Part shown: one piece after another, positions 7,291-63,776 of the stretch
Numbering within the stretch: position 1 is the first letter of the stretch
Layout of the letters: each line of letters starts with the position of its first letter
Assembly (NCBI RefSeq): GCF_963921235.1
Contig: NC_086107.1
Location: 100,380,001-100,444,000 of the forward strand
From: Mobula hypostoma
Taxonomy: Eukaryota
DNA length: 64,000 nucleotides
Direction: 5' to 3'
Program-made: the position numbers and the translations under genes
The notes under the pieces: model-generated
What the model saw: the letters and a program-made list of their open reading frames with translations, nothing else
Told to the model about the DNA's origin: nothing
The model's database searches: none

Positions 7291-7919
7291 AAACAACAGG
7301 AATTCTGCAGATGCTGGAAATTCAAGCAACACACATCAAAGTTGCTGGTGAACGCAGCAGGCCAGGCAGTATCTATAGGAAGGGGTACAGTCGACGTTTT
7401 GGGCCGAGACTCTTCGTCAGGACTAACTGAAGGAAGAGTTAGTAAGAGATTTGAGTGGGAGGGGGAGGGGGAGATCCAAAATGATAGGAGAAGACAGGAG
7501 GGGGAGGGATGGAGCCAAGAGCTGGACAGGTGATAGGCAAAAGGGATATAAGAGGATCACGGGACAGGAGGTCCGGGGAGAAAGACAAGGGGGGGGGGAG
7601 CCCAGAGAATGGGCAAGGGGTATAGTCAAAGGGACAGAGGGAGAAAAAGGAGAGAGAGAGAAAGAATGTGTGTATAAAAATAAATAACAGATGGGGTACG
7701 AGGGGGAGGTAGGGCATTAGCAGAAGTTAGAGAAGTCGATGTTCATGCCATCAGGTTGGAGGCTACCCAGACGGAATATAAGGTGTTGATCCTCCAACCT
7801 GAGTGTGGCTTCACCTTTACAGTAGAGGAAGCCGTGGATAGACATATCAGAATGGGAATGGGATGTGGAATTAAAATGTGTGGCCACTGGGAGATCCTGC
7901 TTTCTCTGGCGGACAGAGC
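7291..7919 (-). mobile_element. Penelope-like 3' fragment (GIY-YIG end + pLTR)
   Basis: ORF 7717..8022 ends ...FRLGSLQPDGMNIDFSNF; same pLTR as the 44.6 and 57.5 kb copies; hammerhead remnant at 7389-7424 (GAAA mutated to AAAA). Confidence 0.9.
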
Positions 7920-8628: not shown

Positions 8629-9727
8629 TAAGAGATTGTGGATGTCACTAATGAGCCACTATTGAGAATTAGAATTTATTTAAGTCTTACAATCATCCCA
8701 CAATGTGAGGGAGTAAAAATCTTTGCGTTATGACTCCATTGCAACATAAGACATGTGAATTTAAATGTCTAACGGCTTGTAGAAAGAAGCTGTTGGTCCT
8801 GGCGTTAATGCTGCGGTACCATATGCCCGATGGGAGCAGCTGAACCAGTTTATGGTCGGGGTGACTGGTGATCCCGATGATCTTCCAGGCCTTCTTTATG
8901 CGCCTGCTGCTGTAAATCTCCTCAATGGAGGAGTTCATGTCCACAGATGCGCTGGGCTGTCCGTGCCACTCTCTGCAGTGCCCAGTGCGCAAGGTTGGCG
9001 CAGTTCCCATGCCAGGCGGTGATAATGCCAGTCAGGATGCTCTCAATTGTTGCCTGTCTCCAAAAAGCTACATACATGCAAGTAGGTTGATGTGATGGTG
9101 GGGGGCGGGGGTCACCTGAATATATTGCTACAATGAGGTGCTCTGCTATCCATTTTAGAGAGCAATTAAGAGCAGAGGGCCTTGGCTCCCTAGCATGCCA
9201 AACCAGGAAAGAGCAGCAGATTTCTTGCCCTAAAGGATGTAAGTGAACCAGACACACATCACCCAGTATTTCCATGGTCACCCTTAATTTCCACCCTTAA
9301 TTAAAAACAAATGTTAATTCCCCAGTGGAATTCAAATTCGTGTCTCCAGATCATTTTCCCAGGCCTTTGAACTGTTGGTCCCGTAATTTAACCTGCTACG
9401 CCGCTGTTCTATTTGTTATGCTAATTACATGCTTATTTTGCAAGTTTATTAATACCCTTTTGTTGTCGCCTTCATTTTTGAATATTCCCCAATTTTGTGT
9501 TACTTGCAAATTTAGCAGATGAATTCTGATTACAAAGACTGAAACATTAGCATAAATTATGAACGGCAGTGGCTCGCATGCTGATCACACGTGACCCCAC
9601 CTCCAACCTGACCACACATTCCGCCTCTATACACCCAGTCCAGTTGACTCTGCATTCTTTCAAACATCAAACTGTTAAGTGGCATCTCTGTGGAATTCTG
9701 TTGTAACTGCTACCTGACACACTTTAC

Positions 9728-9877
9728 TAACTTTTCCTTCAGTTAGTCCTGACGAAGGGTCTTGGCCTGAAACGTCGACTGTACCTCTTCCTAGAGATGC
9801 TGCCTGGCCTGCTGCGTTCACCAGCAACTTTGATGTGTGTTGCTTGAATTTCCAGCATCTGCAGAATTCCTGTTGTT
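9728..9877 (+). mobile_element. 150-bp Penelope pLTR-end insertion
   Basis: Matches the pLTR 3' end; 9-bp TSD ACACTTTAC at 9719-9727 and 9878-9886. Confidence 0.88.
9745..9780 (+). ncRNA. Minimal type I hammerhead ribozyme motif, intact core
   Basis: AGTC CTGACGA AGG GTCTTGG CCT GAAA CGTC/GACT: stem I AGTC/GACT, CUGANGA box, stem II AGG/CCT, GAAA, palindromic ACGT stem III; predicted cleavage after 9776. Confidence 0.8.
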
Positions 9878-42842: not shown

Positions 42843-43023
42843 AAACACGAGGAATTCTGCAGATGCTGGAAATTCAAGCAACACACATCAAAGTTGCTGG
42901 TGAACGCAGCAGGCCAGGCAGCATCTCTAGGAAGAGGTACAGTCGACGTTTCAGGCCGAGACCCTTGGTCAGGACTAACTGAAGGAAGAGCTAGTAAGAG
43001 ATTTGAAAGTGGGAGGGGGAGGG
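42843..43023 (-). mobile_element. Penelope pLTR fragment with hammerhead remnant (42941-42976, CTGACCA)
   Basis: Near-identical to the pLTR of the 44.6 kb copy. Confidence 0.88.
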
Positions 43024-44395: not shown

Positions 44396-44556
44396 ATACA
44401 CAAACACAAGTATACGGGGCAAAGAGATAGCAGGAAATGGAGATGAGAGTGGACAAAGGGTAGAATTACTTTTCACTGGAATGAAAAATCAGGACTGATA
44501 GTTGAATGCAGAAGTGGCCCACATGGTAAGGCTAATCTAGCATTTAATAAGATCAT

Positions 44557-46196
44557 AAACAACAGGAATTCTGCAGATGCTGGAAATTGAAGCAACATAC
44601 ATCAAAGTTGCTGGTGAACACAGCAGGCCAGGCAGCATCTGTAGGAAGAGGTGCAGTCGACGTTTCAGGCCGAGACCCTTCGTCAGGACTAACTGAAGGA
44701 AGAATGAGTAAGGGATTTGAAAGTTGGAGGGGGAGGGGGAGATCCAAAATGATAGGAGAAGACAGGAGGGGGAGGGATAGAGCCAAGAGCTGGACAGGTG
44801 ATAGGCAAAAGGGGATACGAGAGGATCATGGGACAGGAGGTCCGGGAAGAAAGACGGCGGGGGGGGGGGAACCCAGAGGATGGGCAAGAGGTATATTCAG
44901 AGGGACAGAGGGAGAAAAAGGAGAGTGAGAGAAAGAATGTGTGCATAAAAATAAGTAACAGATGGGGTACGAGGGGGAGGTGGGGCTTTAGCGGAAGTTA
45001 GAGAAGTCGATGTTCATGCCATCAGGTTGGAGGCTACCCAGACGGAATACAAGGTGTTGTTCCTCCAACCTGAGTGTGGCTTCATCTTTACAGTAGAGGA
45101 GGCCGTGAATAGACATGTCAGAATGGGAATGGGATGTGGAATTAAAATGTGTGGCCACGGGAGATCCTGCTTTCTCTGGCGGACAAGAGCGTAGATGTTC
45201 AGCAAAGCGGTCTCCCAGTCTGCGTCGGGTCTCGCCAATATATAAAAGGCCACATCGGGAGCACCGGATGCAGTATATCACCTTAGTCGATTCACAGGTG
45301 AAGTGTTGCCTCACCTGGAAGGACTGTTTGGGGCCCTGAATGGTGGTAAGGGAGGAAGTGTAAGGGCATGTGTAGCACTTGTTCCGCTTACACGGATAAG
45401 TGCCAGAGTTGTATACAACTCCCTTGTCCATTCGTCCCCCCCATCCCACCCCACTGATCTCCCTCCTGGCACTTATCCGTGTAAGCGGAACAAGTGCTAC
45501 ACATGCCCTTACACTTCCTCCCTTACCACCATTCAGGGCCCCAAACAGTCCTTCCAGGTGAGGCAACACTTCACCTGTGAGTCGGCTGGGGTGATATACT
45601 GCGTCCGGTGCTCTCGATGTGGCCTTTTATATATTGGCGAGACCCGACGCAGACTGGGAGACCGCTTTGCTGAACATCTACGCTCTGTCCGCCAGAGAAA
45701 GCAGGATCTCCCAGTGGCCACACATTTTAATTTCACATCCCATTCCCATTCTGACATGTCTATCCACGGCCTCCTCTACTGTAAAGATGAAGCCACACTC
45801 AGGTTGGAGGAACAACACCTTATATTCCGTCTGGGTAGCCTCCAACCTGATGGCATGAACATCGACTTCTCTAACTTCCGCTAAGGCCCCACCTCCCCCT
45901 CGTACCCTATCTGTTACTTATTTTTATGCACACATTCTTTCTCTCACTCTCCTTTTTCTCCCTCTGTCCCTCTGAATATACCTCTTGCCCATCCTCTGGG
46001 TTCCCCCCCCCGCCGTCTTTCTTCCCGGACCTCCTGTCCCATGATCCTCTCGTATCCCCTTTTGCCTATCACCTGTCCAGCTCTTGGCTCTATCCCTCCC
46101 CCTCCTGTCTTCTCCTATCATTTTGGATCTCCCCCTCCCCCTCCAACTTTCAAATCCCTTACTCACTCTTCCTTCAGTTAGTCCTGACGAAGGGTC
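44557..46196. mobile_element. Penelope-like element inserted as a long inverted duplication (GIY-YIG C-terminal half + pLTR on each arm)
   Basis: Both arms encode VIYC..CSRCGLLYIGET...EEQHL.FRLGSLQPDGMN (GIY-YIG). Arms are 44674-45406 and 45466-46196; 14-bp TSD TTTAATAAGATCAT at 44543-44556 and 46197-46210. Confidence 0.93.
44655..44690 (-). ncRNA. Minimal type I hammerhead ribozyme motif, intact core
   Basis: Minus strand reads AGTC CTGACGA AGG GTCTCGG CCT GAAA CGTC/GACT. Confidence 0.8.
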
Positions 46197-47362
46197 TTTA
46201 ATAAGATCATGTTCTGACCTGACTGTAACCTCAACTCCCAACTGAAACCCTAGAAAACTTCTATAAATGTACCATGGAGAGCATTCTGACTGGCTGCATC
46301 ACTGTCTTGTATGGGGGGGGGGGGGCTACTGCATAAGACCATAGTATGTTGCAGAAACTTGTAAAATTAGTCAGCTCCATCAAAGGTACTAGCCACCACA
46401 GTATTCAAGGAGTGGTGCCTTAGGAAGGTGGGGTCCATCGTTAAGGACCCCCACCACCCAGGACATGCCCTCTTCACATTGTTACTGTCAGGAAGGAGGT
46501 ACAGAAGCTTGAAGGCACACATTCAGTGATTCAGGAACAACTTCTTCCCCTCTGCCATCCGATTCCGAAATGGACATTGAACCCATGAACACTACCTCAT
46601 TACCTTTCTATTTGTTCTTTTTTGCACTACTCGTTTTAACTTAACTACATATATATCATATATTGATATATGATGGCTTTTAAGCCGAAGGCAATTGAAT
46701 AGGATCAATCCTCTTATCAGTGATCTTCATTTTCTAAAGAAAATATCACAGTAATTTGCATTATTCACCCACTGTTCCAGACAGGCCACAGCCAAGTTAG
46801 TTCATCCCAACGGGGGCAATGATATGTCCCCAACTGGTCTAGTGGTGTGATGAAAAGGAAGAAATAAACATACAGCGTTCCTGCTCAGGATTTTATAATC
46901 CACTGAAGGATCTATGAGATTGTGTTGTGAGTTTTTGCAAAGGCGCACAACATGATTGCACACAATATTTAGAGACTAATGTATCACAACTTAGCCAGCT
47001 ACATTTCACAGAAACAAAGGTTTAAAATTATTCATACATCTGAGATATCAATTGAATCTCTCCTGGTTTCCTTAAAGTTAGATTTAGGTGTCAAAAATCT
47101 CCCTGCCCACTAGGCAGTAGAAACAAAAGCTTGTGAACATGTACTAGCAGATTCAAGGACAGCTTCTATCCCACTGTTATAAAGCTCTTGAACGGACCCC
47201 TTAAACGATAAAAATGAACTATTCTTCTCTCAAACTATCTTGTCATGTGCTTTGCATTATTTGTTTATCTGCACTGCACTTTCTCTGTAACTGCAACACT
47301 ATATTCTGCCTTTTTTCTCATTTCACAACCTTAATGTACATAAGTATTCAATGGTCTGTACA

Positions 47363-59935: not shown

Positions 59936-62244
59936 CTGTGAACAAACAAAGAGACTTTGTCAGAATTTCTGTGCAGTACTTATCACTAAGTACTGGTCAA
60001 TTTAACAATAGATGGAATGCTGAATAAAGCTGGTGACATAAAACCAGCTTCTTCCCCCAGGCTGTGAGACCACCCTGCTACTACCTAGTACACATTATTT
60101 ATGACAGTGCCTGTAGCATTACATTGTGGTATATTTAACTATATGTTGTAAATACACTTTATATCAACTTGTACATCTACAGAATAATATGTCAATATTG
60201 TGTTAATATATTAAGTGCTGCATCTGATATACAGTACTGTACAAAAGTCATGTAAAAATTCTGTAAAGCAAGATTGCTTTCAAAAACACTGAAATTAAAA
60301 GCTTCTAAATATAAAAAAACTATAAAGAGCAGTAAATAGAATCAGAATCATTATCATTGGTGTGTGTCGTTAAATTTGTTAACTTAGCAGCAGCAGTTCA
60401 ACGCAATACATAATATAGAAAAAGAAAATAATAATAATAAATAAGCAAATCAATTACAGTATACATGTATTGAATGGATTAAAAATAATGCAAAAAACAG
60501 AAATAATATTATTAAAAAAGTGGTGTTCACTGGTTCAATGTCCATTTAGGAATTGGACGGCGGAGGGGAAGAAGCTGTTCCTGAATTGCTGAGTGTGTGC
60601 CTTCAGGCTTCTGTACCTCCCACCTGACGGTAACAGTGAGAAAAGGGCATGCCTTGGGTGCTGGAGGTCCTTAGTAATGGACGCTGCCTTTCTGAGACAG
60701 GAGACACTTGAAGATGTCCTGGGTACTTTGCAGGCTAGTACCCAAGATGGAGCCGACTAAATTTACAACCCTCTGCAGCTTCTTTCAGTCCTGTGCAGTA
60801 GCACACCCCCCATATCAGACAGTGATGCAGACTGTCAGAATGCTCTCCACAATACATACAACGAAGTTTTTGAGTGTATTTGTTGACATATCAAATCTCT
60901 TCAAACTCCTAATGAAGTATAGTTGCTGTCTTGCCTTCCTTATAACTGCATCGATAAGTAAAAATCTAAACAGTAAATGACTAAATCAAATCAATATTTG
61001 GTATGTCCACCCTTTGTCTCTTAGATACACTGTCGTGCAGTTTTATAAGAAAATTAGCTGGGTTGTTCCAAGCATTTGGAGAACTTGCCATAGTTCTTCT
61101 GCAGACTTTGGTTGTCTCATTCGTATCTGTCTCTCCGAGCAATCGCAGACAGCCTCAGTGAAGTTTAAGATCATGGCTCTGTGGAAGCCATACCATCTGT
61201 TGCAGAACTCCTTGCCCTTCTTTTTGCTGAAGATGGTTTTTTATTACCTTGGGTGTGTATTAGGGGTTATTGTCCTGACGCAGAATGAAGTTGGGACCAA
61301 TCGCATGCCCCCCTCATGCTATTGCATGATAGATGAGAATCTGCTTGTACTTCTCAGCATTGAGGATTCTATTAATTCTGACCAGATCACCAACTCCATT
61401 TGCAGAAATGCAGCTTCAAACCTGCAGAGAACCTCCACTGTGCTTCACTGTTGGCTGTAGACACTCTTCCATGTACTGTTCTTGAGCTCTTCTACAAACT
61501 GCCTCCAAAAATTTCAAATTTTGACTAGTCAGTCCAGAGCACTTGCTGCCATTGTTCAGCACCCCAGTCCTTGAGTTTCTATGCATAGCTGAGTCTCTTG
61601 GCTTTGCTTCCCAGACATCCCACCTCTCCTGGAAGTTCCGGGAGTCTCCCACATATCGGTAGTGGCTCTCTGACGCCCGAAAATTATATACAATATCCCA
61701 GAAATAGATTTTTTTGAGAGGGAGAGAGAGAGAGGGAGAGCGAGCATCCTGATTGGTCTCTCTTCGTGCTAACAGTGGTCCTCAACCACCGGGCGAGGAA
61801 ACAATATGATTTGGCGATATGAAACGATATGAGTCAGCTGCACCTTTCCTCATTCCCTGTCATGCACTGTTGAATTTTAACGCACGCGAGGTCACCAGTG
61901 AATCAAGACGTGCAAAGGAATGGATCAGTGACCTATTTGTGAATGTCCCCGGTGAATCATCCATGTCAGCGTGGGAAGAAGATCAATTCCTTGAGCTTGC
62001 AAATGACAGCGGACTGAAAAGTATGTTTGACAGAACATCTCTGCCGGCATTCTGGATCACAGTCAAGGCTAAATATCCTGAGATAGCCACGAAAGCACTG
62101 AAAACATTGCTTCCATTTCCAACATCATATCGCTGTGAAGTGGAGTTTTCTGCAATGAATGCTACGAAAACTAAATTGCGGAATAGACTGGACATAAGGA
62201 ACCCCCTTCGAGTATCGCTGTCTCCCATCACCCCTCAATAGGAC

Positions 62245-62437
62245 AGTAAACAACACAAACAACAGGAATTCTGCAGATGCTGGAAATTCAAGCAACACAC
62301 ATCAAAGTTGCTGGTGAACGCAGCAGGCTAGGCAGCATCTCTAGGAAGAGGTACAGTCGACGTTTCAGGCCGAGACCCTTCGTCAGGACTAACTGAAGGA
62401 AGAGTAAGGACTGTACCTCTTCCTAGAGATGCTGCCT
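62245..62437. mobile_element. Short Penelope pLTR insertion with a 29-bp inverted arm
   Basis: Minus-strand pLTR 62257-62408 followed by plus-strand GACTGTACC...GCTGCCT (62409-62437); TSD (CCT)CAATAGGAC at 62233-62244 and 62435-62446. Confidence 0.88.
62355..62390 (-). ncRNA. Minimal type I hammerhead ribozyme motif, intact core
   Basis: Minus strand identical to the 44655-44690 copy. Confidence 0.8.
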
Positions 62438-62606
62438 CAATAGGACTGCGTTGTTGCAGGAAAACAAGCCCGGGGGCTCCCACTGATTCAGTGATATTGG
62501 TGTGCTGCAATGATTTTATATGTTCATACGAGGAAAATATGCGCTGTGTTTAATATCCAAACGTCACCTAAAATGTTATGATGCTATTGACTTATAAGTG
62601 CCTTAT

Positions 62607-62903
62607 CAGTGGTCCCCACCCTCCGGGCCGCAAAGAATACAGCGTGGCCAGAACACACTCAGCACATCTTTAAGAAAAAAGCCGAAATAAACAAGCTAAT
62701 TAATTAGGTGCCGCCCAGCACGTAAATGTCGGCCCAGATCAGAGGCGATTGCCAATTGGGTCGTCTCTGATCTGGGCCGACATTTACGTGCCGGGGGGCA
62801 CCTAATCAATTAGCTTGTTTATTTCGGCTTTTTTCTTAAAGATGTGCCGGGTGCGTTCTGGCTACCGCTACATGCTTCGCGGCCTGGAGGTTTGGGACCA
62901 CTG
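62607..62903. mobile_element. 297-bp fully palindromic MITE with hAT-like ends
   Basis: The whole element is an imperfect inverted repeat centred near 62755; CAGTGGTCCC...GGGACCACTG; TTAT duplicated. Confidence 0.85.
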
Positions 62904-63776
62904 TTATAATTGACTTATCACTACATTAATGCGAGGAAAATATGCGCTGTGTGTTTAATATTAAATTCGTTAGATAAACCCCTTTAGAAACGAAATTGAG
63001 TGTATTAGCCACTTACAAGTAACTTACAGTTGACTTATCCCCGATATTCGGGTGGCGTTTAATACACCCCCCCGCCCCGCCCCGGGTTGGCCAGTCCACA
63101 AGAATATTGTCAATATTAAACCGGTGCGCGGTGCAAAAAAGGTTGGGGACCCCTGATTTAAACTAGCTGGCTAACTGCCAAGGAGCTACGCTATTGATGT
63201 CCTACGTGATGAGGCCAAACTCCCTGTAGACTTGCTTAAAGTTGCAATAGAATAAACATGATAATATAACATAAGTAGATATTTTAATATCACATTTGCT
63301 GCATATACCCAACTTGGTTTACAGATTAGACAAGATCACTAAACAAAGTATTACATACACCCTTGGAGGTCGACGGAGGGTGGGGGATATGGGGTTGCGG
63401 GGGGCGGGGGTGCTACCTCCCTGAAATGAGTTTTTGCAGGGTGGGATGTCTGGCTTCCACTTCAGAGGAATGGTATTTTGGCAGCAAGTCTTCCATGAAG
63501 ATCACTTCAGACAAGTGGTTTCTATGAGTTCAGAGCTGACAGCAGTGTTGAACTTCTTCTGATTTAGAAGGGAAGTCAGTTTGATGTATCCCTCATCTAC
63601 TGCACTCAGGTTCTGGGCCAACCATTGCATTTCTGGTCCTCAACCTTGCCTGTTTCTTTGTGCTTCTTCAGAAGACCTTGGACAGTTACTCTCTTCATTA
63701 TATTAAAGGGTAGGAATTTATGAATGTGACTTGATAATGCATTACAGCAATATAATTTATGAAGTACTCAACTCAC

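What the first reader, a model, noticed from the sequence alone, without database searches (positions are those of the whole stretch)
62245..62446. Penelope insertion whose inverted arm begins exactly at the hammerhead cleavage site
Seen: a minus-strand pLTR with an intact hammerhead (62257-62408) is joined to a 29-bp plus-strand piece of the same pLTR starting GACTGTACC at 62409. In the ribozyme (GAAACGUC/GACUG) that G is the first base after the predicted GUC cleavage site, and the base before it is G rather than the C of the uncut sequence. The arm ends in CCT shared with the target duplication (CCT)CAATAGGAC. Inference: the template RNA had its 5' end made by self-cleavage in an upstream pLTR; the second target strand primed on it by microhomology and ran off that end. 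This would be a genomic fossil of in vivo activity of a minimal ribozyme and a clue to how inverted Penelope ends form. One copy only, and the junction G could also belong to the other arm.
Basis: partly seen in the sequence, partly recalled or inferred. Interest (0 to 1): 0.8.

Follow-up and report, generated by a model that had tools for sequence, protein, structure and literature searches.

The report
Penelope retrotransposon copy with inverted arm
This is an ordinary truncated copy of a Penelope-like jumping gene whose short inverted arm ends at the ribozyme cut site, a spot only mildly favoured across the genome, so it does not show that the ribozyme cuts in living cells.

Summary
The sequence is as described. 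A minus-strand, 5'-truncated Penelope-like element (PLE) tail holds an intact minimal hammerhead core. A 29-bp perfect inverted arm starts at +1 of the predicted GUC| site. A 9-12 bp target duplication flanks the whole insert.

Inverted 5' arms are normal for this family: 14-15 of 30 unbiased copies have one. Most arms run straight through the cut site, and 72% of junctions in the -37..+7 interval lie at -20..-37.

Position +1 is a real but modest local peak:
- Counts are 444 at +1, against 114, 142 and 146 at +4, +3 and +2, and 69 and 71 at -1 and -2.
- +1 holds 2.3% of junctions in the ribozyme zone.
- About 40% of the +1 cases sit on microhomologies created by the ribozyme's own self-complementarity.
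- A non-cleavage position, -4, reaches 150 through one such microhomology.

Among long copies, 309 upstream pLTRs run through the site and 1 starts at +1.

Verdict: a typical PLE inverted insertion. Run-off on a cleaved RNA is possible (about 0.3) but not shown. RNA ends could not be tested.

The parts
62233..62244 (.). Left copy of the target-site duplication, CCTCAATAGGAC.
   Evidence: Exact 12-nt direct repeat with 62435-62446 (family D9).
62245..62256 (-). 12 extra bases beyond the usual element 3' end (minus strand GTGTTGTTTACT). It may be a partial repeat of the terminal TGTTGTTT or a diverged 'tail'.
   Evidence: Other copies end at ...CCTGTTGTTT. Long copies continue there into GCGTTTAAATTCACT.... 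I did not resolve this.
62257..62408 (-). Long arm: the PLE 3'UTR/pLTR segment from -50 to +102 relative to the hammerhead cut site. It runs through the site uncut.
   Evidence: It is 97-100% identical to 40 scored copies in the genome.
62354..62392 (-). Minimal type-I hammerhead. Helix I 5' strand UUAGUC, core CUGACGA, helix II GGGU/GCCU, GAAA, A-(CG)-U helix III, C17, helix I 3' strand GACUG. The predicted cut lies between 62359 and 62358.
   Evidence: Core motif. Helix I (5+2 bp) and helix II (4 bp) appear in the MFE fold, z-score -0.31. Descriptor features come from PMC4209133. There is no Rfam hit.
62330..62358 (-). Positions +1..+29 of the long arm, which are the partner of the inverted arm.
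   Evidence: Inverted repeat I3, 29 nt, 100% complementary.
62409..62437 (+). Short inverted arm: +1..+29 in the opposite orientation. Its inner end is at +1 (or +2). Its outer CCT (62435-62437) is shared with the target duplication.
   Evidence: An outer end at +29 is atypical: 10 of 11 short arms in an unbiased sample end at +57..+72.
62435..62446 (.). Right copy of the target-site duplication.
44540..46200 (-). Another copy of the same family in the window. It is a long head-to-head palindrome with arms of about 780 bp, each arm encoding the C-terminal GIY-YIG endonuclease and the 3'UTR. It shows that the family is a PLE and that inverted arms are usual.
   Evidence: Coverage and orientation profile. 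ORFs 44988-45626(-) and 45246-45884(+). Pfam PF01541 at 22.8 and 23.2 bits, cutoff 22.6.

Best explanation
This is a 5'-truncated copy of a roughly 3.5-kb endonuclease-bearing Penelope-like element. It inserted on the minus strand in a single event with a 9-12 bp target duplication. At its 5' end it carries the inverted, truncated arm that about half of the copies of this family have.

Most likely sequence of events:
1. Both nicked target strands primed cDNA synthesis. This is shown in vitro for another PLE and inferred here.
2. One strand primed at the normal 3' start and copied up to -50.
3. The other strand primed inside the RNA through CCT/AGG microhomology at +27..+29, rather than at the usual second start near +66, and copied up to +1.
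4. The two cDNA 3' ends were joined with at most 1 base of overlap, and the gaps were filled.

The stop at +1 belongs to a real but modest genome-wide preference for cDNA ends at the 3' edge of the hammerhead core. The hammerhead region as a whole is where most copies of this family end or turn around. +1 is one of several peaks there, so the coincidence with the cut site does not by itself show RNA self-cleavage.
For: Anatomy.

PLE identity:
- GIY-YIG ORFs upstream of the hammerhead.
- RT-like frame (RVT_1 at 24.3 bits, below the cutoff of 29.6).
- Atlas look-alikes with RVT_1+HTH_animal+GIY-YIG, score 0.96.
- Upstream pLTR joined to the internal region in 6 of 6 fetched long copies and in 309 pattern hits.

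Inverted arms are the norm:
- 14-15 of 30 unbiased copies have one.
- About 27 of the first 100 unbiased rows have one (read by eye).
- One arm reaches about +102 and the other +57..+72 in 10 of 11 cases. This matches the two RT start sites and the 30-40 bp 'tail' reported for PLEs (PMC11167929 and PMC8557442, passages read).

Junction distribution:
- 19,222 hits with the junction in -37..+7, of which 5,314 lie in -19..+7.
- Per-position counts: +4 114, +3 142, +2 146, +1 444, -1 69, -2 71, -4 150.

Composition of the first 100 rows at +1, read by eye:
- About 18 CAGTC|CTGACG, where AGTC of helix I is shared.
- About 14 CAGTC|AGGACGAAGGG.
- About 10 CAGTC|TCGGCC.
- About 9 ordinary copies with a small indel.
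- About 15 plain truncations.
- About 7 of the same type as this copy.

Literature (passages read):
- In vitro, PLE protein cuts and extends both strands, and hammerhead-dead mutants insert normally (PMC11167929).
- Palindromes at inverted PLE junctions are already described (PMC3846280).
Against: - +1 is still the single most frequent position in -19..+7, at 8.4% of 5,314.
- The excess persists where no intra-element microhomology can act. Simple 5'-truncated copies starting at +1 extrapolate to about 67 pattern hits. The comparable figures are about 25, 17 and 32 at +4, +3 and +2, and about 12 and 14 at -1 and -2. These are fractions of the first 100 rows read by eye, scaled to the totals, except at -1 and -2, where all 69 and 71 rows were listed and the figures are direct by-eye counts.
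- A purely structural stop of reverse transcription would be expected before a helix rather than after helix I has been copied.
- In the family at large the inner ends of the two arms are correlated, for example -58/-58, -520/-527 and -45/-51. Independent priming on two RNAs does not predict that. It fits self-priming, or re-use of one RNA.
- The outer end at +29 is unusual.
Confidence: 0.5

Rival explanations
1. The short arm is a run-off cDNA made on an RNA whose 5' end (5'-OH G at +1) was produced by hammerhead self-cleavage. The second target strand primed at +27..+29 by CCT microhomology and copied to the very end of that RNA. The long arm came from an uncut hammerhead, either the downstream pLTR of the same RNA or a second RNA.
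For: - The arm ends exactly at +1, or at +2.
- Genome-wide, +1 is a 3-fold (against +2 to +4) to 6-fold (against -1 and -2) local peak.
- The peak includes plain 5'-truncated copies, about 67 extrapolated hits against about 12-32 at neighbouring positions, by eye.
- It also includes copies of this same type, with the antisense arm ending at +1 joined to sense sequence far upstream: about 7 of the first 100 rows at +1 against about 5 of 100 at +2, from totals of 444 and 146.
- 64 loci are perfect palindromes centred on the site.
- A few loci have both arms ending at +1 with filler between them (for example C2:238052098).
- A peak at +1 with a shoulder at +2 and fewer ends just beyond is what run-off at an RNA end would give.
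Against: - Only 2.3% of junctions in the ribozyme zone are at +1, and most arms cross the site.
- About 40% of +1 cases lie on ribozyme-derived microhomology. GTCGAC is a 6-bp palindrome centred on the site, so two uncut cDNAs can anneal there.
- -4 reaches 150 hits, about 65 of the first 100 rows from one 4-nt overlap class, with no cleavage involved.
- Among copies that keep an upstream pLTR joined to the internal region, 309 run through the site and 1 starts at +1. None of 6 fetched long copies starts at +1.
- This copy has G.U at 10.1-11.1 where G-C is the conserved pair (PMC4209133).
- Counts at -1 and -2 are deflated, because those patterns need an intact CpG.
Confidence: 0.3
2. Self-priming (snap-back) or a palindrome followed by deletion. 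One cDNA turned around on itself, or a longer symmetrical palindromic insertion of the common type formed. The present 50-nt 'loop' and the +1 end would then come from template switching or from a later deletion at the unstable palindrome centre, not from any RNA end.
For: - Inner ends of the two arms are usually close to each other.
- Zero-loop or tiny-loop palindromes are common, for example CAGGACT|AGTCCTG and CGTCAGGAC|GAAGGG, and CAGTC|ACTGTACC.
- Self-priming was proposed for PLE palindromic junctions by Arkhipova et al. 2013 (PMC3846280, passages read).
- The plus strand here is one continuous strand: cDNA, then sense +1..+29, then target.
Against: - There is no complementarity between the long arm's 3' cDNA end (...GAGTAAG) and the place where copying would restart, so a 50-nt-loop snap-back has nothing to hold it.
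- The 29-bp arms are still 100% identical and the target duplication is intact, so there is no sign of later rearrangement.
- In half of the +1 cases the arm that ends at +1 is the long primary arm while the short arm extends past it to -18..-32. Snap-back on the same cDNA cannot produce that.
Confidence: 0.15

Closest known systems
Canonical EN+ Penelope-like element insertion structure: pLTRs, an inverted 5'-truncated copy at the 5' end, and a 30-40 bp tail (Craig et al. 2021, PMC8557442; Arkhipova et al. 2013, PMC3846280; passages read)
   Same: - 5' truncation and a variable target duplication.
- An inverted truncated copy abutting the 5' end.
- One arm about 36 nt shorter at its outer end across the family.
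- The hammerhead lies in the pLTR, with a GIY-YIG ORF upstream.
   Different: - In this copy the short arm is only 29 bp.
- Its outer end is at +29 instead of about +66.
- Its inner end coincides with the predicted ribozyme cut.
In vitro PLE target-primed reverse transcription (Poseidon of Anolis, PMC11167929; passages read)
   Same: - Both target strands are cut and extended.
- There are two internal RT start sites, whose spacing explains the tail.
- Uncleaved RNA is the main template, in line with 309 of 310 long copies and most arms crossing the site here.
   Different: - It is a different family and host.
- There the hammerhead overlaps the ORF start. Here it lies about 100 nt before the unit boundary and about 140 nt before the first ATG of the next unit.
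- No in vitro data exist for this family.
L1 5'-inversion by twin priming (recalled from Ostertag and Kazazian 2001; no call)
   Same: - One target duplication around an inverted 5' piece plus a direct 3' piece.
- Microhomology at the priming site and at the inversion junction.
   Different: In L1 the inverted piece comes from RNA upstream of the direct piece, with little overlap. Here the 29 nt are duplicated (present in both arms), so two passes or two RNAs are needed.
Ribozyme-defined 5' ends of R2 elements (HDV-like ribozyme; Eickbush and Eickbush 2010, seen only in the reference list, otherwise recalled)
   Same: The idea that a self-cleaving ribozyme sets the 5' end of a retrotransposon template, leaving a uniform 5' junction in the genome.
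   Different: - In R2 the ribozyme end is the dominant 5' end.
- Here ends at the cut site are a 2% minority, and no RNA evidence is available.

Membership tests
Penelope-like element (EN+) | C-terminal GIY-YIG endonuclease in the single ORF | tested here: met
   Pfam PF01541 at 23.2 and 22.8 bits (cutoff 22.6) on window ORFs 45246-45884(+) and 44988-45626(-). Both end about 330 nt upstream of the hammerhead.
Penelope-like element (EN+) | Reverse transcriptase in the same ORF, upstream of the endonuclease | tested here: inconclusive
   - RVT_1 scores 24.3 bits (E 3e-5), below the cutoff of 29.6, at residues 649-811 of the L091 frame.
- No Pfam hit and no PDB hit for the 468-aa L015 piece.
- Atlas look-alike clusters carry RVT_1+HTH_animal+GIY-YIG, score 0.96. 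This is a lead only.
- No phylogeny against telomerase-like RTs was made.
Penelope-like element (EN+) | pLTRs formed by partial tandem copies, often with an inverted 5'-truncated copy and a 30-40 bp tail | tested here: met
   - An upstream pLTR is joined at +102 to the internal region in 6 of 6 long copies and in 309 pattern hits.
- An inverted arm is present in 14-15 of 30 unbiased copies.
- Arm outer ends lie at about +102 against +57..+72.
Minimal type-I hammerhead of PLEs | Core CUGANGA ... GAAA ... NUH, with helices I and II and a 1-bp helix III closed by a palindromic loop | tested here: met
   - CUGACGA, GAAA and A-CG-U then C17 are all present.
- ACGU is palindromic.
- Helix I (5+2 bp) and helix II (4 bp) appear in the MFE fold.
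- There is an extra A between positions 9 and 10.1, as in the published descriptor (PMC4209133).
- In this copy 10.1-11.1 is G.U, while other copies have G-C (GGCCCGAAAC).
Minimal type-I hammerhead of PLEs | Recognition by curated covariance models | tested here: not met
   There was no hammerhead family hit at gathering score or at E up to 10 on 62200-62480. The hits there are miRNA models matching the 29-bp hairpin. That Rfam holds no model built for these minimal variants is my recollection, not a result of any call.
Minimal type-I hammerhead of PLEs | Self-cleavage after C17 | not testable with these tools
   All 22 listed sequencing runs are kept as contigs and none is on record as RNA.
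Twin-priming type 5' inversion | One target duplication around the composite, with microhomology at the internal priming site and at the junction | tested here: met
   - 12-nt duplication.
- CCT shared between the arm and the target.
- At most 1 nt of overlap at the inner junction.
Twin-priming type 5' inversion | Inverted and direct segments are adjacent, non-overlapping parts of one RNA | tested here: not met
   +1..+29 is present in both arms. Overlap is the rule in this family.

The most novel reading that the evidence does not exclude
About 1-2% of insertions of this very abundant PLE family were templated by RNA whose 5' end was made by hammerhead self-cleavage. The +1 peak would then be a genomic record of in vivo activity of a minimal PLE hammerhead, for which the papers I read report no in vivo evidence. 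That peak includes simple truncated copies, copies like this one, and palindromes centred on the site.

More broadly, the hammerhead domain rather than the cut itself would be the main stop or turnaround point of PLE cDNA synthesis, and so the place where inverted pLTR ends are made. About half of all copies end within -60..+30 of it.
Probability: 0.3. Interest if true: 0.7.

Novelty: new member of a known kind. Interest (0 to 1): 0.4.

Why it matters
The function of hammerheads in endonuclease-bearing Penelope-like elements is an open question. Craig et al. 2021 write that "HHR function ... is still unclear", and the 2024 in vitro study found cleavage dispensable and saw no cleaved RNA in vivo.

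A genomic signature of cleaved templates would be the first in vivo evidence. This single copy cannot carry that claim.

The census made here turns the idea into numbers:
- A 3-fold peak at +1 over +2 to +4, holding about 2% of junctions.
- A much stronger clustering of copy ends and turnarounds across the ribozyme as a whole.

Both can be tested in other PLE families, including the Naiad and Chlamys clades that lack hammerheads, and by RNA end mapping.

Tried and rejected
- Rfam gave no hammerhead hit at gathering score over the window or at E up to 10 over the locus. The miRNA-family hits are the 29-bp hairpin and not a gene.
- Public sequencing runs: no RNA holder is listed. All 22 runs are kept as contigs, which cannot show RNA ends.
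- Earlier findings of this scan: nothing to show.
- Pfam and PDB searches on the 468-aa L015 ORF piece gave no hits.
- I fetched a copy listed with a long open frame. Its upstream part is an L1-like LINE (APE, RVT_1 and Tnp_22 dsRBD-like domains) into which a PLE truncated at +98 is fused in frame. It therefore said nothing about the PLE 5' end. The 5' organisation was obtained from six other copies instead.
- I considered a second cleavage after the GUC at -31..-29 as the cause of the -26..-33 hot spot. I rejected it because ends there are spread over 6-8 positions rather than sitting at -28 (by eye).
- I considered helix-I-mediated self-priming (junction +6|-33) as the main route. Only 2 of about 85 junction rows fit it (by eye).
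- I considered the 4-nt-shorter CTTACTCTTCC as junction filler. I rejected it because it is a subfamily trait.
- Two literature calls failed on term syntax and were re-sent.
- No listed paper holds 'twin priming' together with Penelope or hammerhead (48 papers hold at least 2 of the 3 terms, and the 12 listed have 0 occurrences of 'twin priming'). Supplements of the cited papers were not read and may bear on junction statistics.

Full report
**1. What is in the window**

Positions are given relative to the predicted hammerhead cut. On the minus strand, -1 is window 62359 and +1 is window 62358.

- The insert 62245-62434/37 is flanked by the exact direct repeat CCTCAATAGGAC (62233-44 and 62435-46).
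- On the minus strand it reads, 5' to 3': the reverse complement of +29..+1, then CTTACTCTTCCTTCAGTTAGTC-CTGACGA-AGGGTCTCGGCCT-GAAA-CGTC (-50..-1), then GACTGTACC... up to +102, then 12 extra bases.
- The two 29-nt arms are 100% complementary.
- The hammerhead core occurs 5 times in the window at up to 3 mismatches, against 0 in shuffles.
- Rfam does not recognise it. The core, the 1-bp helix III with its palindromic ACGU, the extra base after A9, and helices I and II fit the minimal PLE hammerhead of Cervera and de la Pena (PMC4209133, passages read).
- The inner junction is ambiguous by one base, because related copies have C before CTTACT.

**2. What the element is**

- A longer copy in the window (44540-46200) is a head-to-head palindrome. 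Each arm encodes a C-terminal GIY-YIG domain that ends about 330 nt upstream of the hammerhead.
- The assembly is 3.48 Gb.
- A 26-nt probe from the 3' part has 32,871 exact hits under the pattern. The endonuclease protein has 201,576 first-look candidates.
- In long copies the sequence runs from +102 directly into GCGTTTAAATTCACT..., followed by an ATG about 40 nt later and the RT-EN frame. These copies therefore start with an upstream, variably truncated pLTR, beginning at -464, -548, -748 or beyond, +86, -685 and -147 in the six copies fetched.
- RT evidence is weak by Pfam and supported only by Atlas look-alikes.
- Overall this is a typical EN+ Penelope-like element of about 3.5 kb.

**3. 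Inverted arms are the rule**

- In the first 30 unbiased hits, 14-15 copies have an antisense arm abutting their 5' end.
- One arm reaches about +102. The other usually ends at +57..+72 (10 of 11; one ends at +25).
- This 30-40 nt difference is the known PLE 'tail' and corresponds to two internal RT start sites found in vitro (PMC11167929, PMC8557442).
- 17 of these 30 copies have their 5' end or turnaround within -60..+30, so the hammerhead region is the main termination zone.

**4.

I searched the whole genome for an antisense probe (+27..+8) followed by antisense sequence up to position k and then three forced mismatches.

| Position k | Hits | Call |
|---|---|---|
| +4 | 114 | 67 |
| +3 | 142 | 37 |
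| +2 | 146 | 24 |
| +1 | 444 | 23 |
| -1 | 69 | 25 |
| -2 | 71 | 40 |
| -4 | 150 | 44 (probe one base shorter) |

- With the mismatch block placed further away, 19,222 hits have their junction in -37..+7 and 5,314 in -19..+7.
- So 72% of junctions lie at -20..-37 (by eye mostly at -26..-33), and +1 holds 2.3%.
- Caveats: the probes are exact, so old copies are under-sampled. The filter passes about 42% of random junctions. Patterns for k at or below -1 need an intact CpG, so they undercount. Some hits are ordinary copies with small indels: about 9% at +1 and about 35-40% at +2 and -1, by eye.

**5. What makes up the +1 peak**

These figures come from the first 100 rows, read by eye. The first 30 rows were checked by script.

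- About 18 share AGTC with helix I (CAGTC|CTGACG).
- About 14 are CAGTC|AGGACGAAGGG.
- About 10 are CAGTC|TCGGCC.
- About 9 are indel variants.
- About 15 are plain 5'-truncated copies.
- About 7 join +1 to sense sequence far upstream, as in this copy.
- A few are tiny-loop hairpins or tandem cases.

Further points:
- GTCGAC is a 6-bp palindrome centred on the cut, and 64 loci are perfect palindromes there.
- At -4, about 65 of the first 100 rows are one class with a 4-nt GACG/CGTC overlap. This shows that microhomology alone can raise a non-cleavage position to 150.
- The arm that ends at +1 is the short arm in 12 loci and the long arm in 11.
- Against a pure microhomology account, plain truncations still peak at +1. 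They extrapolate to about 67 hits there, against about 25, 17 and 32 at +4, +3 and +2, and about 12 and 14 at -1 and -2.

**6. Test of the specific model**

Among copies whose upstream pLTR is joined to the internal region, 309 read through the site and 1 begins at +1. Long templates were therefore almost always uncut. [quoted passage not shown] RNA ends could not be examined here.

**7. Reading**

The copy is an ordinary PLE inverted insertion. Its only unusual traits are the short arm (outer end at +29, with CCT microhomology to the target) and the inner end at +1.

Position +1 is genuinely favoured about 3-fold over +2 to +4. However, it is a minor site, it is confounded by the ribozyme's own complementarity, and it is embedded in a region where ends are common everywhere.

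My estimates are:
- About 0.5 that the +1 end is a non-diagnostic stop within this zone.
- About 0.3 that it is run-off on a cleaved RNA.
- About 0.15 that it comes from self-priming or later rearrangement.

Palindromic PLE junctions and self-priming were already discussed by Arkhipova et al. 2013 (PMC3846280). In vivo hammerhead activity is documented for canonical type-I motifs in retrozymes (PMC7229834, passages read) but not for minimal PLE variants.

Noticed in passing
Genome-wide; for example window 44690-44700 and 7430-7440: The dominant hot spot for copy 5' ends and palindrome turnarounds is at -26..-33, the 5' edge of the hammerhead (start of helix I), not at the cut site. About 72% of junctions in -37..+7 lie at -20..-37. 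It could be the transcript 5' end or a stop after the ribozyme has been copied. It remains unexplained.
   Followed up: partly
Window 7437-7456 (-), 42983-43002 (-), 9727-9746 (+); absent from the 62.4k copy's subfamily: Just upstream of helix I most copies read CTTACTAAC-TCTTCCTTCAG, which looks like a branch point plus polypyrimidine tract plus AG (a 3' splice acceptor). In D. virilis Penelope the intron end maps to the 5' end of helix I (PMC4209133). The subfamily of the 62.4k copy lacks 4 nt of the TACTAAC box.
   Followed up: no
Window 44540-46200: A long head-to-head palindromic PLE copy with arms of about 780 bp and the turn near 45420-45440. It holds two mirrored open GIY-YIG frames of 212 aa each.
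   Followed up: partly
L031-L060 and L061-L090: Short arms begin at about +57..+72 while long arms begin at about +102. This gives two preferred cDNA start points about 36 nt apart, a genomic counterpart of the two in vitro RT initiation sites and the 'tail' of PLEs.
   Followed up: partly
G000:C1:61736884-61736994 (L069/L070): A tandem array of a 31-nt unit that is exactly +1..+31 of the element (units joined ...CCTGG|GACTG...). Another locus (C5:70501190) joins an element 3' end directly to +1.
   Followed up: no
Window 62604-62906: Immediately downstream of the insert lies a separate hairpin-like repeat. Its arms 62644-62748 and 62761-62865 are 105 nt, 92% complementary and 12 nt apart, nested in a second pair 62604-62644 / 62866-62906. 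Related pieces occur at 61770-61803. It is probably a MITE-like element.
   Followed up: no
L092:1271-3600 and L091:1-1948: An L1-like LINE (ORF1 with a Tnp_22 dsRBD-like hit, an APE endonuclease and RVT_1) present in many copies at 89-97% identity. One copy carries a PLE fused in frame.
   Followed up: partly
Window 62327-62442: Sub-threshold Rfam matches to plant and animal miRNA precursor models (MIR9408 and mir-5681, 23-33 bits against gathering scores of 88-90). They are caused only by the 29-bp inverted repeat and are not evidence of a miRNA gene.
   Followed up: yes
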